In this document: positions 8,932 to 61,995 of the stretch, one piece after another
Numbering within the stretch: the stretch's first letter is position 1
How the letters are laid out: each line of letters opens with the position of its first letter
Assembly (NCBI RefSeq): GCF_016026235.1
Contig: NZ_CP065613.1
From: Escherichia coli
GTDB lineage: Bacteria; Pseudomonadota; Gammaproteobacteria; Enterobacterales; Enterobacteriaceae
Reading direction: 5' to 3' (one strand)
Length of the DNA: 64,000 nucleotides
The notes under the pieces: generated by a model
What the model was told of the DNA's origin: nothing
The model's input: the letters and a program-made list of their open reading frames with translations, nothing else
Database searches by the model: none
Program-made: the position numbers and the translations under genes

Positions 8932-10152
8932 TCAGTCTTTATGCCGGTTATCAGGCAGGAATATGGTCAACATCCCCAATAGTGGCAGGAAAGCACAGAT
9001 TTTATAGACTAACTCGATGCTGGTGTGATCGGCGATAAGCCCCAGAACTGCCGCTCCCAGACCTCCCATGCCAAAAGCAAAACCGAAAAAGAGTCCAGAA
9101 ACCATACCGATACGTCCTGGAAGCAGCTCCTGAGCGTAGACTAGAATGGCAGAGAATGCCGAAGCGAGGATAAATCCAATAATCACCGTTAAAACCCCCG
9201 TCCAGTGCAGGCTGGCGTAGGGTAAAATCAGCGTAAACGGCGCAACGCCGAGGATAGAGCCCCAAATCACATATTTCCGCCCAATTTTATCCCCTACAGG
9301 CCCGCCGATCACCGTACCTGCCGCAACGGCAAACAGGAAGGCAAACAGATGAAGCTGAGCATTCTGGATAGATAATCCGAATTTTTGCATCAGATAAAAG
9401 GTGTAATAGCTGCTGATGCTCGCCATATAGAAATATTTCGAGAAAATGAGGATTAACAGAATGCTGACCGCCAGTACAACTTTATTGCGCGGCAGTGGAT
9501 TGATAATCGTCGCTTTGGGTTTTCCTTTATTCATTCGGTGCTGTGCCGAGTACCAACGGCTGATTTGCGCCAACACCACGATCGCCAGCAGTGCCGCAAG
9601 CACAAACCAGGCAACGTTGCCTTTGCCATAAGGCGCGATAATCACCGCCGCCAGCAAGGGTCCCAGGGAACTGCCAAAGTTGCCGCCGACCTGAAAGATT
9701 GATTGCGCCAGGCCATGCCGCCCGCCGGACGCCATACGGGCCACGCGAGAAGATTCCGGATGAAAGACCGATGAACCGGTACCGACCAGCGCCGCCGCCA
9801 GCAGAACTGCGCCAAAACTGCCTGCCAGCGCAAGCAGCACCAGACCACTTAAGGTAAAGCACATGCCAATTGGCAACGACCACGGCATCGGATATTTATC
9901 GGTCCAGTAGCCGACCACTGGTTGCAGTAGCGAAGAGGCGAGCTGGAAGGTGAGGGTTATCATGCCAATCTGCATAAATGTCAGAGAAAATTCTGACTGA
10001 AGCAGCGGATAAATCGCCAGAATCAGCGATTGGATCATATCGTTCAGCAGATGTGAGAGGCTGATAGCACCTAAAATACCAAACGATGTTCGGGCCTTGG
10101 TCGTTGACGCAGCCGCGCCCGCCACAGGCTGGGTTTGTTCACTCATTGCCAT
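8932..10152 (-). CDS. fsr: MFS transporter, fosmidomycin resistance protein
   Basis: 406-aa 12-TM-type ORF recognised as Fsr. Confidence 0.9.
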   Translation of the reverse strand: MAMSEQTQPVAGAAASTTKARTSFGILGAISLSHLLNDMIQSLILAIYPLLQSEFSLTFMQIGMITLTFQLASSLLQPVVGYWTDKYPMPWSLPIGMCFTLSGLVLLALAGSFGAVLLAAALVGTGSSVFHPESSRVARMASGGRHGLAQSIFQVGGNFGSSLGPLLAAVIIAPYGKGNVAWFVLAALLAIVVLAQISRWYSAQHRMNKGKPKATIINPLPRNKVVLAVSILLILIFSKYFYMASISSYYTFYLMQKFGLSIQNAQLHLFAFLFAVAAGTVIGGPVGDKIGRKYVIWGSILGVAPFTLILPYASLHWTGVLTVIIGFILASAFSAILVYAQELLPGRIGMVSGLFFGFAFGMGGLGAAVLGLIADHTSIELVYKICAFLPLLGMLTIFLPDNRHKD

Positions 10153-10276
10153 AGGAAAGTCACTTTTTCAGGGTTGCGATGTAAAGAATGATCTTATTTG
10201 TGATTATTACCCGACTAACATACCTGTATGCGCCGCCTGAAGGAAGTCTCAACGCTGAATACAGAATTTCTAATCT

Positions 10277-10313
10277 GGATGCAGATTTATCTTCACCGGA
10301 CGCAGACTTGTCT
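10277..10313 (+). promoter_or_regulatory. Two 16-bp imperfect direct repeats (ggatgcagatttatct / ggacgcagacttgtct) 21 bp apart in the fsr-ushA divergent region
   Basis: 13/16 identity, two helical turns apart, abutting a TATGAT -10-like hexamer at 10313-10318 upstream of ushA. Confidence 0.35.
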
Positions 10314-10369
10314 ATGATGTCGCGTCATACTATTTTTCAACACGTTGAAATCAGGTCAGGGAGAGAAGT

Positions 10370-12022
10370 ATGAAATTATTGCAGCGGGGCGTGGCGTTAG
10401 CACTGTTAACCACATTTACACTGGCGAGTGAAGCTGCTCTGGCGTATGAGCAGGATAAAACCTACAAAATTACAGTTCTGCATACCAATGATCATCATGG
10501 GCATTTTTGGCGCAATGAATATGGCGAATATGGTCTGGCGGCGCAAAAAACGCTGGTGGATGGTATCCGCAAAGAGGTTGCGGCTGAAGGCGGTAGCGTG
10601 CTGCTACTTTCCGGTGGCGACATTAACACTGGCGTGCCCGAGTCTGACTTACAGGATGCCGAACCTGATTTTCGCGGTATGAATCTGGTGGGCTATGACG
10701 CGATGGCGATCGGTAATCATGAATTTGATAATCCGCTCACCGTATTACGCCAGCAGGAAAAGTGGGCCAAGTTCCCGTTGCTTTCCGCGAATATCTACCA
10801 GAAAAGTACTGGCGAGCGCCTGTTTAAACCGTGGGCGCTGTTTAAGCGTCAGGATCTGAAAATTGCCGTTATTGGTCTGACGACGGATGACACAGCGAAG
10901 TTAGGCAATCCAGAAAACTTCACCGATATTGAGTTCCGTAAGCCCGCCGATGAAGCGAAGCTGGTGATTCAGGAGCTGCAACAGACAGAAAAGCCAGACA
11001 TTATTATCGCGGCGACACATATGGGGCATTACGATAACGGCGATCACGGTTCTAACGCACCGGGCGATGTGGAGATGGCACGCGCGTTGCCTGCCGGATC
11101 GCTGGCGATGATTGTCGGCGGTCACTCGCAAGATCCAGTCTGTATGGCAGCGGAAAATAAAAAGCAGGTAGATTACGTTCCGGGTACGCCATGCAAACCG
11201 GATCAACAAAACGGCATCTGGATTGTACAGGCGCATGAGTGGGGCAAGTACGTTGGTCGGGCCGACTTTGAGTTTCGCAACGGCGAAATGAAAATGGTTA
11301 ACTACCAGCTGATTCCGGTGAACCTGAAGAAGAAAGTGACCTGGGAAGACGGGAAAAGCGAGCGCGTGCTGTACACCCCGGAAATCGCTGAAAACCAGCA
11401 AATGATCTCGCTGTTATCACCGTTCCAGAACAAAGGCAAAGCGCAGCTGGAAGTGAAAATAGGCGAAACCAATGGTCGTCTGGAAGGCGATCGTGACAAA
11501 GTGCGTTTTGTACAGACCAATATGGGGCGGTTGATTCTGGCAGCACAAATGGATCGCACTGGTGCCGACTTTGCGGTGATGAGCGGAGGAGGAATTCGTG
11601 ATTCTATCGAAGCTGGCGATATCAGCTATAAAAACGTGCTGAAAGTGCAGCCATTCGGCAATGTGGTGGTGTATGCCGACATGACCGGTAAAGAGGTGAT
11701 TGATTACCTGACAGCCGTCGCACAAATGAAGCCAGATTCAGGTGCCTACCCGCAATTTGCCAACGTTAGCTTTGTGGCGAAAGACGGCAAACTGAACGAC
11801 CTGAAAATCAAAGGCGAACCGGTCGATCCGGCGAAAACTTACCGTATGGCGACATTAAATTTCAATGCCACCGGCGGTGATGGCTATCCGCGCCTTGATA
11901 ACAAACCGGGCTATGTGAATACCGGCTTTATTGATGCCGAAGTGCTGAAAGCGTATATCCAGAAAAGCTCGCCGCTGGATGTGAGTATTTATGAACCGAA
12001 AGGTGAGGTGAGCTGGCAGTAA
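10370..12022 (+). CDS. ushA: Periplasmic UDP-sugar hydrolase / 5'-nucleotidase
   Basis: 550-aa ORF with N-terminal signal peptide and metallophosphatase motifs (DHH, GNHEF). Confidence 0.95.
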   Translation: MKLLQRGVALALLTTFTLASEAALAYEQDKTYKITVLHTNDHHGHFWRNEYGEYGLAAQKTLVDGIRKEVAAEGGSVLLLSGGDINTGVPESDLQDAEPDFRGMNLVGYDAMAIGNHEFDNPLTVLRQQEKWAKFPLLSANIYQKSTGERLFKPWALFKRQDLKIAVIGLTTDDTAKLGNPENFTDIEFRKPADEAKLVIQELQQTEKPDIIIAATHMGHYDNGDHGSNAPGDVEMARALPAGSLAMIVGGHSQDPVCMAAENKKQVDYVPGTPCKPDQQNGIWIVQAHEWGKYVGRADFEFRNGEMKMVNYQLIPVNLKKKVTWEDGKSERVLYTPEIAENQQMISLLSPFQNKGKAQLEVKIGETNGRLEGDRDKVRFVQTNMGRLILAAQMDRTGADFAVMSGGGIRDSIEAGDISYKNVLKVQPFGNVVVYADMTGKEVIDYLTAVAQMKPDSGAYPQFANVSFVAKDGKLNDLKIKGEPVDPAKTYRMATLNFNATGGDGYPRLDNKPGYVNTGFIDAEVLKAYIQKSSPLDVSIYEPKGEVSWQ

Positions 12023-12659: not shown

Positions 12660-12743
12660 ACACCGTCGCTTAAAGTGACGGCATAATAATAAAAAAATGA
12701 AATTCCTCTTTGACGGGCCAATAGCGATATTGGCCATTTTTTT
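12660..12743 (+). ncRNA. chiX: ChiX (MicM/SroB) Hfq-dependent small RNA
   Basis: Sequence acaccgtcgcttaaagtgacggcataataat...gggccaatagcgatattggccattttttt matches my recollection of ChiX; TTGGCA-17bp-GACAAT promoter at 12625-12653; terminal hairpin plus T-run overlapping the ybaP stop. Confidence 0.8.
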
Positions 12744-59385: not shown

Positions 59386-61995
59386 ATGAAAATACCCACT
59401 ACTACGGATATTCCGCAGAGGTATACCTGGTGTCTGGCCGGAATTTGTTATTCATCTCTTGCCATTTTACCCTCCTTTTTAAGCTATGCGGAAAGTTATT
59501 TCAACCCGGCATTTTTATTAGAGAATGGCACATCCGTTGCTGATTTATCGCGCTTTGAGAGAGGTAATCATCAACCTGCGGGCGTGTATCGGGTGGATCT
59601 CTGGCGTAATGATGAGTTCATTGGTTCACAGGATATCGTATTTGAATCGACAACAGAAAATACAGGTGATAAATCAGGTGGGTTAATGCCCTGTTTTAAC
59701 CAGGTACTCCTTGAACGAATTGGCCTTAATAGCAGTGCATTTCCCGAGTTAGCCCAGCAGCAAAATAATAAATGTATCGATTTACTGAAAGCTATACCTG
59801 ATGCCACAATTAACTTTGATTTTGCAGCGATGCGCCTGAACATCACTATTCCACAGATAGCGTTGCTGAGTAGCGCTCACGGTTACATTCCGCCTGAAGA
59901 GTGGGACGAGGGTATTCCTGCTTTACTCCTGAATTATAATTTCACCGGTAACAGAGGTAATGGTAACGATAGCTATTTTTTTAGTGAGCTCAGCGGGATT
60001 AATATTGGCCCGTGGCGTTTACGCAACAATGGTTCCTGGAACTATTTTCGCGGAAATGGATATCATTCAGAACAGTGGAATAATATTGGCACCTGGGCAC
60101 AGCGCGCCATTATTCCGCTGAAAAGTGAACTGGTAATGGGAGACGGCAATACAGGAAGTGATATTTTCGATGGTGTTGGATTTCGTGGTATACGGCTTTA
60201 CTCTTCCGATAATATGTATCCTGATAGCCAGCAAGGGTTTGCCCCAACGGTACGTGGGATTGCCCGTACGGCGGCCCAGCTAACGATTCGGCAAAATGGT
60301 TTTATTATCTATCAAAGCTATGTTTCCCCCGGCGCTTTTGAAATTACAGATTTGCACCCGACATCTTCAAATGGCGACCTGGACGTCACCATCGACGAGC
60401 GCGATGGTAATCAGCAGAATTACACAATTCCGTATTCAACAGTGCCAATTTTACAACGCGAAGGGCGTTTCAAATTTGACCTGACGGCGGGCGATTTTCG
60501 TAGCGGTAATAGTCAGCAATCATCGCCTTTCTTTTTTCAGGGCACGGCACTCGGCGGTTTACCACAGGAATTTACTGCCTACGGCGGGACGCAATTATCT
60601 GCCAATTACACCGCCTTTTTATTAGGGCTGGGGCGCAACCTCGGGAACTGGGGCGCAGTGTCGCTGGATGTGACCCATGCGCGCAGCCAGTTAGCCGACG
60701 ACAGTCGTCATGAGGGGGATTCCATTCGCTTCCTCTATGCGAAATCGATGAACACCTTCGGCACCAATTTTCAGTTAATGCGTTACCGCTATTCGACACA
60801 AGGTTTTTATACCCTTGATGATGTTGCGTATCGTCGAATGGAGGGGTACGAATATGATTACGATTACGACGGTGAGCATCGCGATGAACCGATAATCGTG
60901 AATTACCACAATTTACGCTTTAGCCGTAAAGACCGTTTGCAGTTAAATATTTCACAATCACTTAATGACTTTGGCTCGCTTTATATCTCTGGTACCCATC
61001 AAAAATACTGGAATACTTCGGATTCAGATACCTGGTATCAGGTGGGGTATACCAGCAGCTGGGTTGGCATCAGTTATTCACTCTCATTTTCGTGGAATGA
61101 ATCTGTAGGGATCCCCGATAACGAACGTATTGTCGGACTTAATGTTTCAGTGCCTTTCAATGTTCTGACCAAACGTCGCTACACCCGGGAAAATGCGCTC
61201 GACCGCGCTTATGCCTCCTTTAACGCCAACCGTAACAGCAACGGGCAAAATAGCTGGCTGGCAGGTGTAGGTGGGACCTTACTGGAAGGCCACAACCTGA
61301 GTTATCACGTAAGCCAGGGTGATACCTCGAATAATGGGTATACGGGCAGCGCCACGGCAAACTGGCAGGCCACTTACGGTACGCTGGGGGTCGGGTATAA
61401 CTACGACCGCGATCAACATGACGTTAACTGGCAGCTGTCTGGCGGTGTGGTCGGGCATGAAAATGGCATAACGCTGGGCCAGCCTTTAGGGGATACCAAT
61501 GTTTTGATTAAAGCGCCTGGCGCAGGCGGTGTACGCATTGAAAATCAAACTGGCATTTTAACCGACTGGCGCGGCTATGCGGTGATGCCGTATGCCACGG
61601 TTTATCGGTATAACCGTATCGCGCTTGATACCAATACGATGGGGAATTCCATCGATGTTGAAAAAAATATTAGCAGCGTTGTGCCGACGCAAGGCGCGTT
61701 GGTTCGTGCCAATTTTGATACCCGCATAGGCGTGCGGGCGCTCATTACCGTTACCCAGGGCGGAAAACCGGTGCCGTTTGGATCACTGGTACGGGAAAAC
61801 AGTACCGGAATAACCAGTATGGTGGGTGATGACGGGCAAGTTTATTTAAGTGGTGCGCCATTGTCTGGTGAATTACTGGTTCAGTGGGGAGACGGCGCGA
61901 ACTCACGCTGCATTGCGCACTATGTATTGCCGAAGCAAAGCTTACAGCAAGCCGTCACTGTTATTTCGGCAGTTTACACACATCCTGGCTCATAA
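59386..61995 (+). CDS. sfmD: Fimbrial outer-membrane usher
   Basis: 869-aa usher-family ORF. Confidence 0.9.

What the first reader, a model, noticed from the sequence alone, without database searches (positions are those of the whole stretch)
10277..10313. Tandem 16-bp direct repeats overlapping the likely ushA promoter
ggatgcagatttatct (10277-10292) and ggacgcagacttgtct (10298-10313) are 13/16 identical and spaced 21 bp apart start-to-start, on the same face of the helix. They abut a TATGAT -10-like hexamer (10313-10318), about 55-90 bp upstream of the ushA ATG. Direct-repeat geometry is typical of response-regulator binding sites. I do not recognise the motif.
Basis: seen in the sequence. 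Interest (0 to 1): 0.35.

Follow-up and report, generated by a model that had tools for sequence, protein, structure and literature searches.

The report
Decayed triplication in ushA promoter
The two 16-bp repeats are the best-preserved copies of an old, Escherichia-only threefold tandem duplication of a 21-bp piece of the ushA promoter; only the copy nearest the gene still looks functional, so this is an ordinary evolutionary relic, not a likely new regulator-binding array.

Summary
The repeats are in the sequence exactly as described: 13 of 16 bases match at a 21-bp period. The window is E. coli, at the divergent fsr–ushA intergenic region.

A pair like this is not unusual on its own; 6 are seen in the window and 3.6 are expected. 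It is, however, part of a three-unit array (10255-10316, units of 20, 21 and 21 bp). That array is the strongest such structure in the 64 kb window, and 0 of 20,000 shuffles reach its score.

In 62 non-Escherichia Enterobacteriaceae loci there is a single unit, CTGAAAACATATTTGTCTATT, and the promoter region is about 42 bp shorter. All Escherichia species have the extra 2 × 21 bp. One divergent lineage has only one extra unit.

Published maps put the ushA transcription start sites (TSSs) at window 10339 and 10344. The proximal repeat covers the -35 region.

Within Escherichia the distal copy diverges about as fast as unconstrained linker (0.28 against 0.36 differences per site). The proximal copy's 3' half (0.10) and the flanking blocks (0.04–0.07) are constrained.

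Best reading: a decaying tandem triplication made by replication slippage, which moved the fsr promoter block four helical turns away from the ushA core promoter. A response-regulator site array is not supported. Interest is low.

The parts
10255..10274 (+). Its 5' half continues conserved block B.
   Evidence: It matches the single-copy unit of other genera at 15/21, and no random window 21-mer among 20,000 reached that score. It is absent in L002.
10275..10295 (+). Unit u1 (CTGGATGCAGATTTATCTTCA).
   Evidence: It matches the ancestral unit at 13/21 and u2 at 14/21. It diverges at 0.28 per site within Escherichia, similar to neutral linker at 0.36. In E. albertii it matches the ancestral unit at only 9/21.
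10296..10316 (+). Unit u2 (CCGGACGCAGACTTGTCTATG). It is the positional homologue of the 3' part of the single ancestral unit.
   Evidence: It matches the ancestral unit at 14-18 of 21 across Escherichia. Its 3' half diverges at 0.10 per site. The alignment to 22 non-Escherichia representatives is.
10308..10313 (+). TTGTCT, the conserved -35-like hexamer (4/6). It lies 17 bp upstream of TATTTT and fits the TSS at 10344. CAGACT (10303-10308) lies 17 bp upstream of CATACT and fits the TSS at 10339.
   Evidence: The (T)TGTCTA block is the commonest form at this position in outgroups: TGTCTA in 33 of 62 loci, with variants such as CGACTA, AGACTA and TGTTTA in the rest. The spacing was read. The assignment itself is inferred.
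10313..10318 (+). It actually lies in the spacer between -35 and -10, at -26 to -21.
   Evidence: No TSS is reported downstream of it at the expected distance. The only + strand TSSs between the fsr and ushA coding regions are at 10339 and 10344.
10326..10336 (+). -10 region with three overlapping candidates: CATACT (10326-31), TACTAT (10328-33) and TATTTT (10331-36).
   Evidence: Position relative to the mapped TSSs. The aligned TGTAATTT block is strongly conserved in outgroups. Low divergence of 0.07 per site.
10339..10344 (+). ushA transcription start sites: A at 10339 (5'UTR 31 nt) and G at 10344 (5'UTR 26 nt).
   Evidence: Cappable-seq gives U00096.2:504107 (PMC4782308 supplement). Kim et al. 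2012 give 504107 and 504112 with the ATG at 504138 (PMC3415461 supplement). The coordinate map was verified with chiX/sroB.
10236..10262 (.). Block B (E. coli CCTGAAGGAAGTCTCAACGCTGAATAC; outgroup consensus TTTGAAGGAAGTCTCAATTCTGAAAAC). This is a very strongly conserved element between the two promoters. It contains the predicted fsr -35 (TTCCTT, reverse complement of 10240-10245). The array displaces it 42 bp from the ushA -35.
   Evidence: Almost every position is at least 90% conserved in 62 loci. A regulator may bind here, but none was identified.
10200..10226 (-). Block A. It contains the predicted fsr -10 (TATGTT, reverse complement of 10217-10222). The predicted fsr TSS is near 10210 on the minus strand.
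   Evidence: The K. pneumoniae fsr TSS is preceded by ...CAGGTATGTTAGTTGGA (PMC3415461 supplement). The block is conserved across genera and diverges at 0.04 per site in Escherichia. The E. coli fsr TSS itself was not found in the stored data.
10370..12022 (+). ushA coding sequence (periplasmic 5'-nucleotidase / UDP-sugar hydrolase).
   Evidence: ORF list and RefSeq annotation of identical or near-identical E. coli genomes.
8932..10152 (-). fsr coding sequence (fosmidomycin MFS transporter), transcribed divergently from ushA.

Best explanation
The two repeats are units 2 and 3 of a three-unit, head-to-tail array (10255-10316; 20 + 21 + 21 bp). The array arose in the stem lineage of Escherichia by tandem duplication, twice, of a 21-bp segment of the ushA promoter.

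The ancestral segment is single-copy in all other Enterobacteriaceae examined (CTGAAAACATATTTGTCTATT). It comprised the 3' edge of a conserved element between the two promoters plus the ushA -35 region. Replication slippage between short direct homologies 21 nt apart (ATTCT...ATTCT, still present in outgroups) is the likely mechanism.

Today only the ends of the array appear to keep ancestral function. The 3' half of the proximal unit supplies the -35 region of the sigma-70-type ushA promoter, with mapped TSSs at 10339 and 10344. The 5' half of the first unit remains the edge of conserved block B, which belongs to the fsr promoter or a shared upstream element. The interior (3' half of u0, all of u1, 5' half of u2) behaves as near-neutral spacer.

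The net effect is a 42-bp insertion, equal to four helical turns, between the back-to-back fsr and ushA promoters. It increases the inferred TSS-to-TSS distance from about 87 to about 129 bp.

Shown: the array, its lineage restriction, the TSS positions and the divergence pattern. Inferred: the slippage mechanism, the hexamer assignments, the E. coli fsr TSS, and the lack of function of the interior copies.
For: 1. Length. The distance from block B to the ushA ATG is 87-93 nt in 62 non-Escherichia loci. It is 129-134 nt in E. coli, E. albertii, E. whittamii and Escherichia sp., and 111 nt in L002, so the gains are about 42 and about 21 bp.
2. Alignment. It places the gain exactly at the repeats, and outgroups have one unit.
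3. Unit similarity. Each E. coli unit resembles the outgroup unit (15, 13 and 14 of 21). At most 5 in 10,000 random window 21-mers do as well. The three-unit statistic is the top of the 64 kb window and is reached by 0 of 20,000 shuffles.
4. Copy number. It varies between lineages, with two units in L002.
5. Slippage substrate. Outgroups carry the ATTCT/ATTCT microhomology at a 21-nt lag, exact in 17 of 62.
6. Divergence per site within Escherichia: linker 0.36, u0 3' half 0.30, u1 0.28, u2 5' half 0.13, u2 3' half 0.10, block A 0.04, block B 0.07, -10 region 0.07.
7. Decay of u1. Its identity to the ancestral unit falls to 9/21 in E. albertii, while u2 is 18/21.
8. TSS maps. Two independent studies place u2 over the -35 region.
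Against: - The array is fixed and nearly invariant across E. coli phylogroups, and no two-unit allele occurs in 5,426 complete E. coli genomes. This could reflect selection, although E. coli diversity is too low to tell.
- The inserted length is an exact multiple of the helical repeat, and u1/u2 sit at positions typical of activator sites (-54 and -33).
- The ushA -35 is weak, so an activator is plausible.
- One E. coli-specific substitution (A to G at 10299) increased u1-u2 similarity.
- Only five independent Escherichia lineages were available for the divergence estimates.
- E. fergusonii was not sampled.
- The original promoter paper (Burns & Beacham 1986) could not be read.
Confidence: 0.7

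Rival explanations
1. The units are iterated binding sites for a transcription factor. This could be a response regulator, or an AraC/XylS-type activator that uses direct repeats about 21 bp apart. It would activate the weak ushA promoter from about -33 and -54, or control fsr. The duplication would have been retained because it added sites.
For: - The 21-bp period places copies on one face of the helix.
- The copies lie at -41 to -26 and -62 to -47 relative to the mapped TSS.
- The -35 hexamers are weak, and no consensus promoter is called.
- The ancestral unit and adjacent block B are strongly conserved across about 25 genera, so some protein probably binds nearby.
- The array is invariant within E. 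coli.
Against: - Outgroups have a single unit.
- u1 diverges almost as fast as unconstrained linker, and the shared GCAGA core is lost in E. albertii and altered (GTAGA) in three other lineages.
- The motif is not enriched in the window.
- Comparison from memory with the PhoB, OmpR, ArcA, CRP, PurR, Cra, PhoP, Lrp and MarA/SoxS consensus sites gave no convincing match.
- No published regulator was found.
Confidence: 0.15
2. The array is selectively maintained as a phased spacer. By inserting exactly four helical turns between the back-to-back fsr and ushA promoters, it relieves steric or alpha-CTD competition between two RNA polymerases, or it repositions a factor bound at block B while keeping it on the same face. 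Length and phase matter, but sequence does not.
For: - The insert is 42 bp in E. coli, E. albertii, E. whittamii and Escherichia sp., and about 21 bp in L002, all close to integral helical turns.
- The interior sequence is free to drift while its length is kept.
- The inferred TSS-to-TSS distance rises from about 87 to about 129 bp.
Against: - L005 has 43 bp.
- Length conservation over this timescale is also expected under neutrality.
- The E. coli fsr TSS is inferred from Klebsiella only.
- There are no expression data comparing alleles.
Confidence: 0.1
3. Chance similarity. The two 16-mers are unrelated AT-rich promoter sequence that happen to match.
For: Pairs matching at 13/16 at short spacing are expected about 3.6 times per 64 kb, and another period-21 pair lies in a coding region. 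TRF and the repeat finder report nothing.
Against: There is a third copy. The three-unit statistic is the window maximum, with 0 of 20,000 shuffles reaching it. The array coincides exactly with a 2 x 21 bp lineage-specific insertion, and each unit resembles the outgroup unit.
Confidence: 0.05

Closest known systems
Slipped-strand (replication slippage) tandem duplications in bacterial intergenic and promoter DNA, and their decay into degenerate short tandem repeats
   Same: Head-to-tail copies of constant period. The length gain is an integer multiple of the unit relative to outgroups. There is microhomology at the unit boundaries in the unduplicated state. Copy number differs between lineages (3 against 2). 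Redundant copies evolve faster.
   Different: It is old and fixed across a genus, not a hypervariable contingency locus. No copy-number polymorphism was seen among 5,426 E. coli genomes. No phase-variable phenotype is known or expected.
Direct-repeat operator arrays of OmpR/PhoB-family response regulators (for example pho boxes) and of AraC/XylS-family activators (araI1-I2, XylS at Pm)
   Same: Direct repeats in helical phase, overlapping or adjoining a weak -35. The 21-bp centre-to-centre spacing equals that of AraC/XylS-type half-sites (from general knowledge).
   Different: No consensus match. The distal copy is not conserved. The repeat is absent from orthologous promoters in other genera. 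No binding evidence was found. The period is explained by duplication.
Back-to-back divergent sigma-70 promoters sharing an upstream region
   Same: fsr and ushA are divergently transcribed from promoters whose upstream regions abut. A strongly conserved block lies between them.
   Different: In Escherichia the shared region has been expanded by 42 bp of duplicated promoter sequence. The shared regulator, if there is one, is unknown.

Membership tests
Tandem duplication relic (slippage-derived short tandem repeat) | Head-to-tail copies with a constant period | tested here: met
   The units are 20, 21 and 21 nt at 10255-10316. Pairwise matches are 12-14 of 21. The statistic is the window maximum, with 0 of 20,000 shuffles reaching it.
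Tandem duplication relic (slippage-derived short tandem repeat) | The length difference to unduplicated orthologues equals an integer number of units, at the same site | tested here: met
   The gain is about 42 bp against 62 outgroup loci and about 21 bp in L002, and the gap falls at the repeats.
Tandem duplication relic (slippage-derived short tandem repeat) | Each copy is homologous to the single outgroup unit | tested here: met
   The units match at 15, 13 and 14 of 21, and random 21-mers reach these scores at a rate of 5e-4 or less. E. albertii u2 matches at 18/21.
Tandem duplication relic (slippage-derived short tandem repeat) | Microhomology flanking the unit in the ancestral state | tested here: met
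   ATTCT...ATTCT at a 21-nt lag is exact in 17 of 62 outgroups and matches at 4/5 in 14 more. Salmonella and most of the Citrobacter loci have 3 or 4 of 5, so support is moderate.
Tandem duplication relic (slippage-derived short tandem repeat) | Relaxed constraint on the redundant copies | tested here: met
   u1 diverges at 0.28 and the u0 3' half at 0.30 per site, against linker at 0.36 and flanking blocks at 0.04-0.10. Only five lineages were available.
Response-regulator or AraC-type direct-repeat binding site | Two or more similar half-sites in helical phase near the promoter | tested here: met
   13/16 identity at a 21-bp period, at -41 to -26 and -62 to -47.
Response-regulator or AraC-type direct-repeat binding site | Half-sites conserved in orthologous promoters | tested here: not met
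   There is a single unit outside Escherichia, and the distal copy decays within Escherichia.
Response-regulator or AraC-type direct-repeat binding site | Match to a known regulator consensus, or recurrence of the motif at other promoters (a regulon) | tested here: inconclusive
   The motif is not enriched in the 64 kb window. Comparison with known consensus sites was from memory only. A whole-genome scan and motif databases were not available.
Response-regulator or AraC-type direct-repeat binding site | Experimental evidence of protein binding or regulator-dependent expression | not testable with these tools
   No report was found in the searchable literature. Burns & Beacham 1986 is not held.
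Sigma-70 core promoter element (-35 region) | A hexamer resembling TTGACA, 16-18 bp upstream of a -10 hexamer that lies about 7 nt upstream of a mapped TSS | tested here: met
   TTGTCT, 17 bp, TATTTT fits the TSS at 10344. CAGACT, 17 bp, CATACT fits the TSS at 10339. The two pairs and the two TSSs are each offset by 5 nt. The matches are weak (8/12 and 7/12), below the scan threshold.

The most novel reading that the evidence does not exclude
The Escherichia-specific 2 x 21 bp expansion is adaptive, not a relic. One possibility is that the three units form a lineage-specific array of sites for an as yet unidentified activator of ushA or fsr. The other is that the exact four-turn insertion uncoupled two formerly overlapping divergent promoters. 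Either way it would be a dated example of promoter rewiring by micro-duplication at the origin of the genus.
Probability: 0.15. Interest if true: 0.4.

Novelty: new member of a known kind. Interest (0 to 1): 0.2.

Why it matters
The value is mainly in annotation.
- It corrects the promoter anatomy of ushA: the -35 region lies inside the proximal repeat, and TATGAT is not the -10.
- It explains the repeat as a genus-specific duplication relic.
- It warns against reading 21-bp direct repeats as regulator sites without comparative data.
- It highlights a more interesting neighbour: a 27-bp block between the fsr and ushA promoters that is nearly invariant across about 25 genera and has no known binding protein.

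If the 42-bp expansion did alter coupling of the divergent promoters, it would be a small, datable case of cis-regulatory evolution in Escherichia.

Tried and rejected
- TRF at minimum score 30 and the repeat finder at seed 6 found nothing, because the copies are too diverged.
- Rfam found nothing credible in 9900-10600: one snoRNA hit at E = 0.61, far below the gathering score.
- The consensus promoter/terminator scan gave no sites at its threshold.
- Burns & Beacham 1986 (NAR 14:4325) could not be fetched by DOI or PMC id. Thomason 2015 is not held. The Rend-seq and ROSE supplements had no ushA entry. The Salmonella ChIP-exo supplement gave expression values only, not a TSS.
- Literature searches for a regulator of ushA or fsr, or for a description of the repeats, were unproductive. 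The MicV-ushA interaction mentioned in one review is listed among sRNA-target pairs with distant base-pairing sites, and I did not treat it as relevant to the E. coli promoter. Salmonella papers state that expression of ushA2, a Salmonella 5'-nucleotidase gene, is PhoB-independent.
- A search for the two-unit (L002) allele in 5,426 E. coli genomes gave only register-shifted hits at 84-86% identity to normal three-unit alleles. This was checked in ATCC 25922 and strain 100416, both with 217-bp intergenic regions.
- The small ORF at 10188-10373 was rejected as coding. It lies upstream of the mapped TSSs, and indels in L005 and E. albertii (+3 and -2 nt intergenic length, not all multiples of three) would shift its frame.
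- By-eye comparison from memory with the PhoB, OmpR, ArcA, CRP, PurR, Cra, PhoP, Lrp, ArgR, MetJ, MarA/SoxS, sigma-E, sigma-32 and sigma-54 consensus sequences gave nothing convincing.

Full report
**Locus.** The window is E. coli. Bases 10100-10420 are 100% identical to strain FDAARGOS_497 and 98.1% identical to K-12. They are annotated as the divergent fsr (8932-10152, minus strand) and ushA (10370-12022, plus strand) genes. Window coordinate equals MG1655 (NC_000913.3) coordinate minus 494544. The sroB/ChiX sRNA confirms this map: Rfam finds it at 12660-12743, exactly as predicted.

**Observation.** They match at 13 of 16 bases, start 21 bp apart, and are followed by TATGAT at 10313-10318. 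Taken alone the pair is not statistically remarkable:
- Pairs matching at 13/16 or better at spacing 16-32 occur 6 times in the window, against 3.6 expected.
- At exactly 21 bp there are 2 against 0.2 expected, and the other lies inside an 869-aa ORF.
- TRF and the generic repeat finder see nothing here.

**What it is.** I fetched 80 ushA loci from one genome per species and aligned the upstream regions. In every non-Escherichia genus examined there is one copy of a unit with consensus CTGAAAACATATTTGTCTATT. These genera include Salmonella, Citrobacter, Enterobacter, Klebsiella, Raoultella, Kluyvera, Kosakonia, Leclercia, Lelliottia, Pluralibacter and Yokenella.

The distance from the conserved upstream block B to the ushA ATG shows the length gain:

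| Group | Block B to ATG (nt) |
|---|---|
| 62 non-Escherichia loci | 87-93 |
| E. coli, E. whittamii, Escherichia sp. E1V33, E. albertii, strain E69 | 129-134 |
| L002 (divergent lineage labelled E. coli) | 111 |

The extra 42 bp falls exactly at the repeats. The sequence resolves into three head-to-tail units:

| Unit | Coordinates | Sequence | Match to outgroup unit |
|---|---|---|---|
| u0 | 10255-10274 | CTGAATACAGAATTTCTAAT | 15/21 |
| u1 | 10275-10295 | CTGGATGCAGATTTATCTTCA | 13/21 |
| u2 | 10296-10316 | CCGGACGCAGACTTGTCTATG | 14/21 |

At most 5 in 10,000 random window 21-mers match the outgroup unit this well. The summed pairwise unit score is the highest of any stretch in the 64 kb window and is reached by 0 of 20,000 shuffles.

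L002 lacks one unit. Single-unit outgroups carry a short direct homology (ATTCT...ATTCT) at a 21-nt lag, exact in 17 of 62 loci. This is a natural substrate for slipped-strand duplication.

**Promoter anatomy.** Cappable-seq reports a single + strand TSS between the two genes, at U00096.2:504107. Kim et al. 2012 report 504107 and 504112, with the ushA ATG at 504138. The 776-bp offset between genome versions was verified on chiX. These TSSs are window 10339 and 10344, giving 5'UTRs of 31 and 26 nt.
- TATGAT is therefore at -26 to -21 and is not the -10.
- The -10 lies in 10326-10336, with overlapping candidates CATACT, TACTAT and TATTTT.
- Two hexamer pairs offset by 5 nt match the two TSSs, which are also offset by 5 nt: CAGACT, 17 bp, CATACT; and TTGTCT, 17 bp, TATTTT. 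This is inference from spacing.
- Either way u2 covers the -35 region, at -41 to -26. u1 is at -62 to -47.
- In outgroups the aligned (T)TGTCTA and TGTAATTT blocks are conserved, while the spacer between them is not.

On the other strand, the K. pneumoniae fsr TSS is preceded by ...CAGGTATGTTAGTTGGA. This puts the fsr -10 (TATGTT) in conserved block A (reverse complement of window 10217-10222). The fsr -35 region then falls in block B (TTCCTT, reverse complement of 10240-10245).

The two promoters are back to back. The triplication widens the gap between their -35 regions from about 21 to about 63 bp. It widens the inferred TSS-to-TSS distance from about 87 to about 129 bp. The E. coli fsr TSS is inferred, not measured.

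**Constraint.** Mean pairwise divergence per site among five Escherichia lineages was as follows:

| Segment | Divergence per site |
|---|---|
| Linker between blocks A and B (unconstrained) | 0.36 |
| u0, 3' half | 0.30 |
| u1 | 0.28 |
| u0, 5' half | 0.20 |
| u2, 5' half | 0.13 |
| u2, 3' half | 0.10 |
| -10 region | 0.07 |
| Block B | 0.07 |
| Block A | 0.04 |

u1 matches the ancestral unit at 13/21 in E. coli but only 9/21 in E. albertii and strain E69. u2 matches at 14-18 of 21. The GCAGA core that makes the repeat conspicuous in E. coli is GTAGA in three lineages and is absent in E. albertii.

The ends of the array, which are contiguous with ancestral functional elements, are conserved. 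The interior drifts.

Within E. coli proper the array is essentially invariant. The only differences seen were one multi-allelic site at 10256 and a TTGTTT variant in ATCC 25922. No two-unit allele exists among 5,426 complete genomes. E. coli diversity is too low for this to discriminate selection from drift.

**Regulator hypothesis.** The motif is not enriched elsewhere in the window, with 15 matches against 14 expected. No paper in the searchable library ties a regulator to the E. coli ushA or fsr promoter. Consensus sites recalled from memory do not match.

I cannot exclude that a protein binds the conserved ancestral unit or block B. I also cannot exclude that the extra copies provide weak additional sites. 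The geometry (-33 and -54) and the weak -35 leave room for this, so I give it about 0.15.

**Verdict.** This is a decayed, Escherichia-specific triplication of a 21-bp ushA promoter segment. Its proximal copy serves as the -35 region, and the rest is a 42-bp (four-turn) spacer between divergent promoters. It is a new instance of a familiar kind of event, and interest is low (0.2). The most notable by-product is block B, a 27-bp element that is nearly invariant across the family and has no assigned function.

Noticed in passing
window 10236-10262 (block B) and 10200-10226 (block A): Two intergenic blocks are nearly invariant across about 25 enterobacterial genera. Block B (consensus TTTGAAGGAAGTCTCAATTCTGAAAAC) is at least 90% conserved at almost every position in 62 loci. 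It is more conserved than the ushA -35 itself and contains a GAAGT-N3-AATTC dyad. It lies between the fsr and ushA promoters, and no binding protein was identified. Block A holds the predicted fsr -10 and a GTAAT-T-ATTAC dyad.
   Followed up: partly
window 10336-10349: A near-palindrome, TTCAAC-AC-GTTGAA, sits exactly over the ushA transcription start sites (10339 and 10344). It is present in E. coli and close relatives, degraded in E. albertii and absent in other genera. It could be an operator or simply chance.
   Followed up: no
L002 1890-1915 (Escherichia lineage labelled E. coli SCPM-O-B-8794): This lineage carries a two-unit allele in which about 21 bp corresponding to u0 is missing. The junction unit CTGGATACAG looks like a u0/u1 hybrid, consistent with unequal recombination or slippage. 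No such allele occurs among 5,426 complete E. coli genomes.
   Followed up: yes
L083 (E. coli ATCC 25922), position equivalent to window 10312: The phylogroup B2 reference strain has TTGTTT instead of TTGTCT in the putative ushA -35 hexamer. A few outgroups also have TGTTTA.
   Followed up: no
window 10256: This site is multi-allelic (T, C or G) among the E. coli strains compared, at the second base of unit u0.
   Followed up: no
window 12660-12743 (+): The sroB/ChiX small RNA lies between ybaK and ybaP (Rfam RF00368, 82 bits). It was used to verify the coordinate mapping.
   Followed up: yes
window 60235-60271: A second 13/16 direct repeat with a 21-bp period lies inside an 869-aa ORF (59386-61995). 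It is most likely chance and serves as a control for how easily such pairs arise.
   Followed up: partly
K. pneumoniae MGH 78578 fsr (PMC3415461 supplement): The reported fsr 5'UTR is 153 nt in K. pneumoniae, against about 58 nt predicted for E. coli from the same -10 element. This suggests an insertion in the Klebsiella pneumoniae leader, since the other Klebsiella and Raoultella loci fetched here have short intergenic regions of about 163 bp.
   Followed up: no
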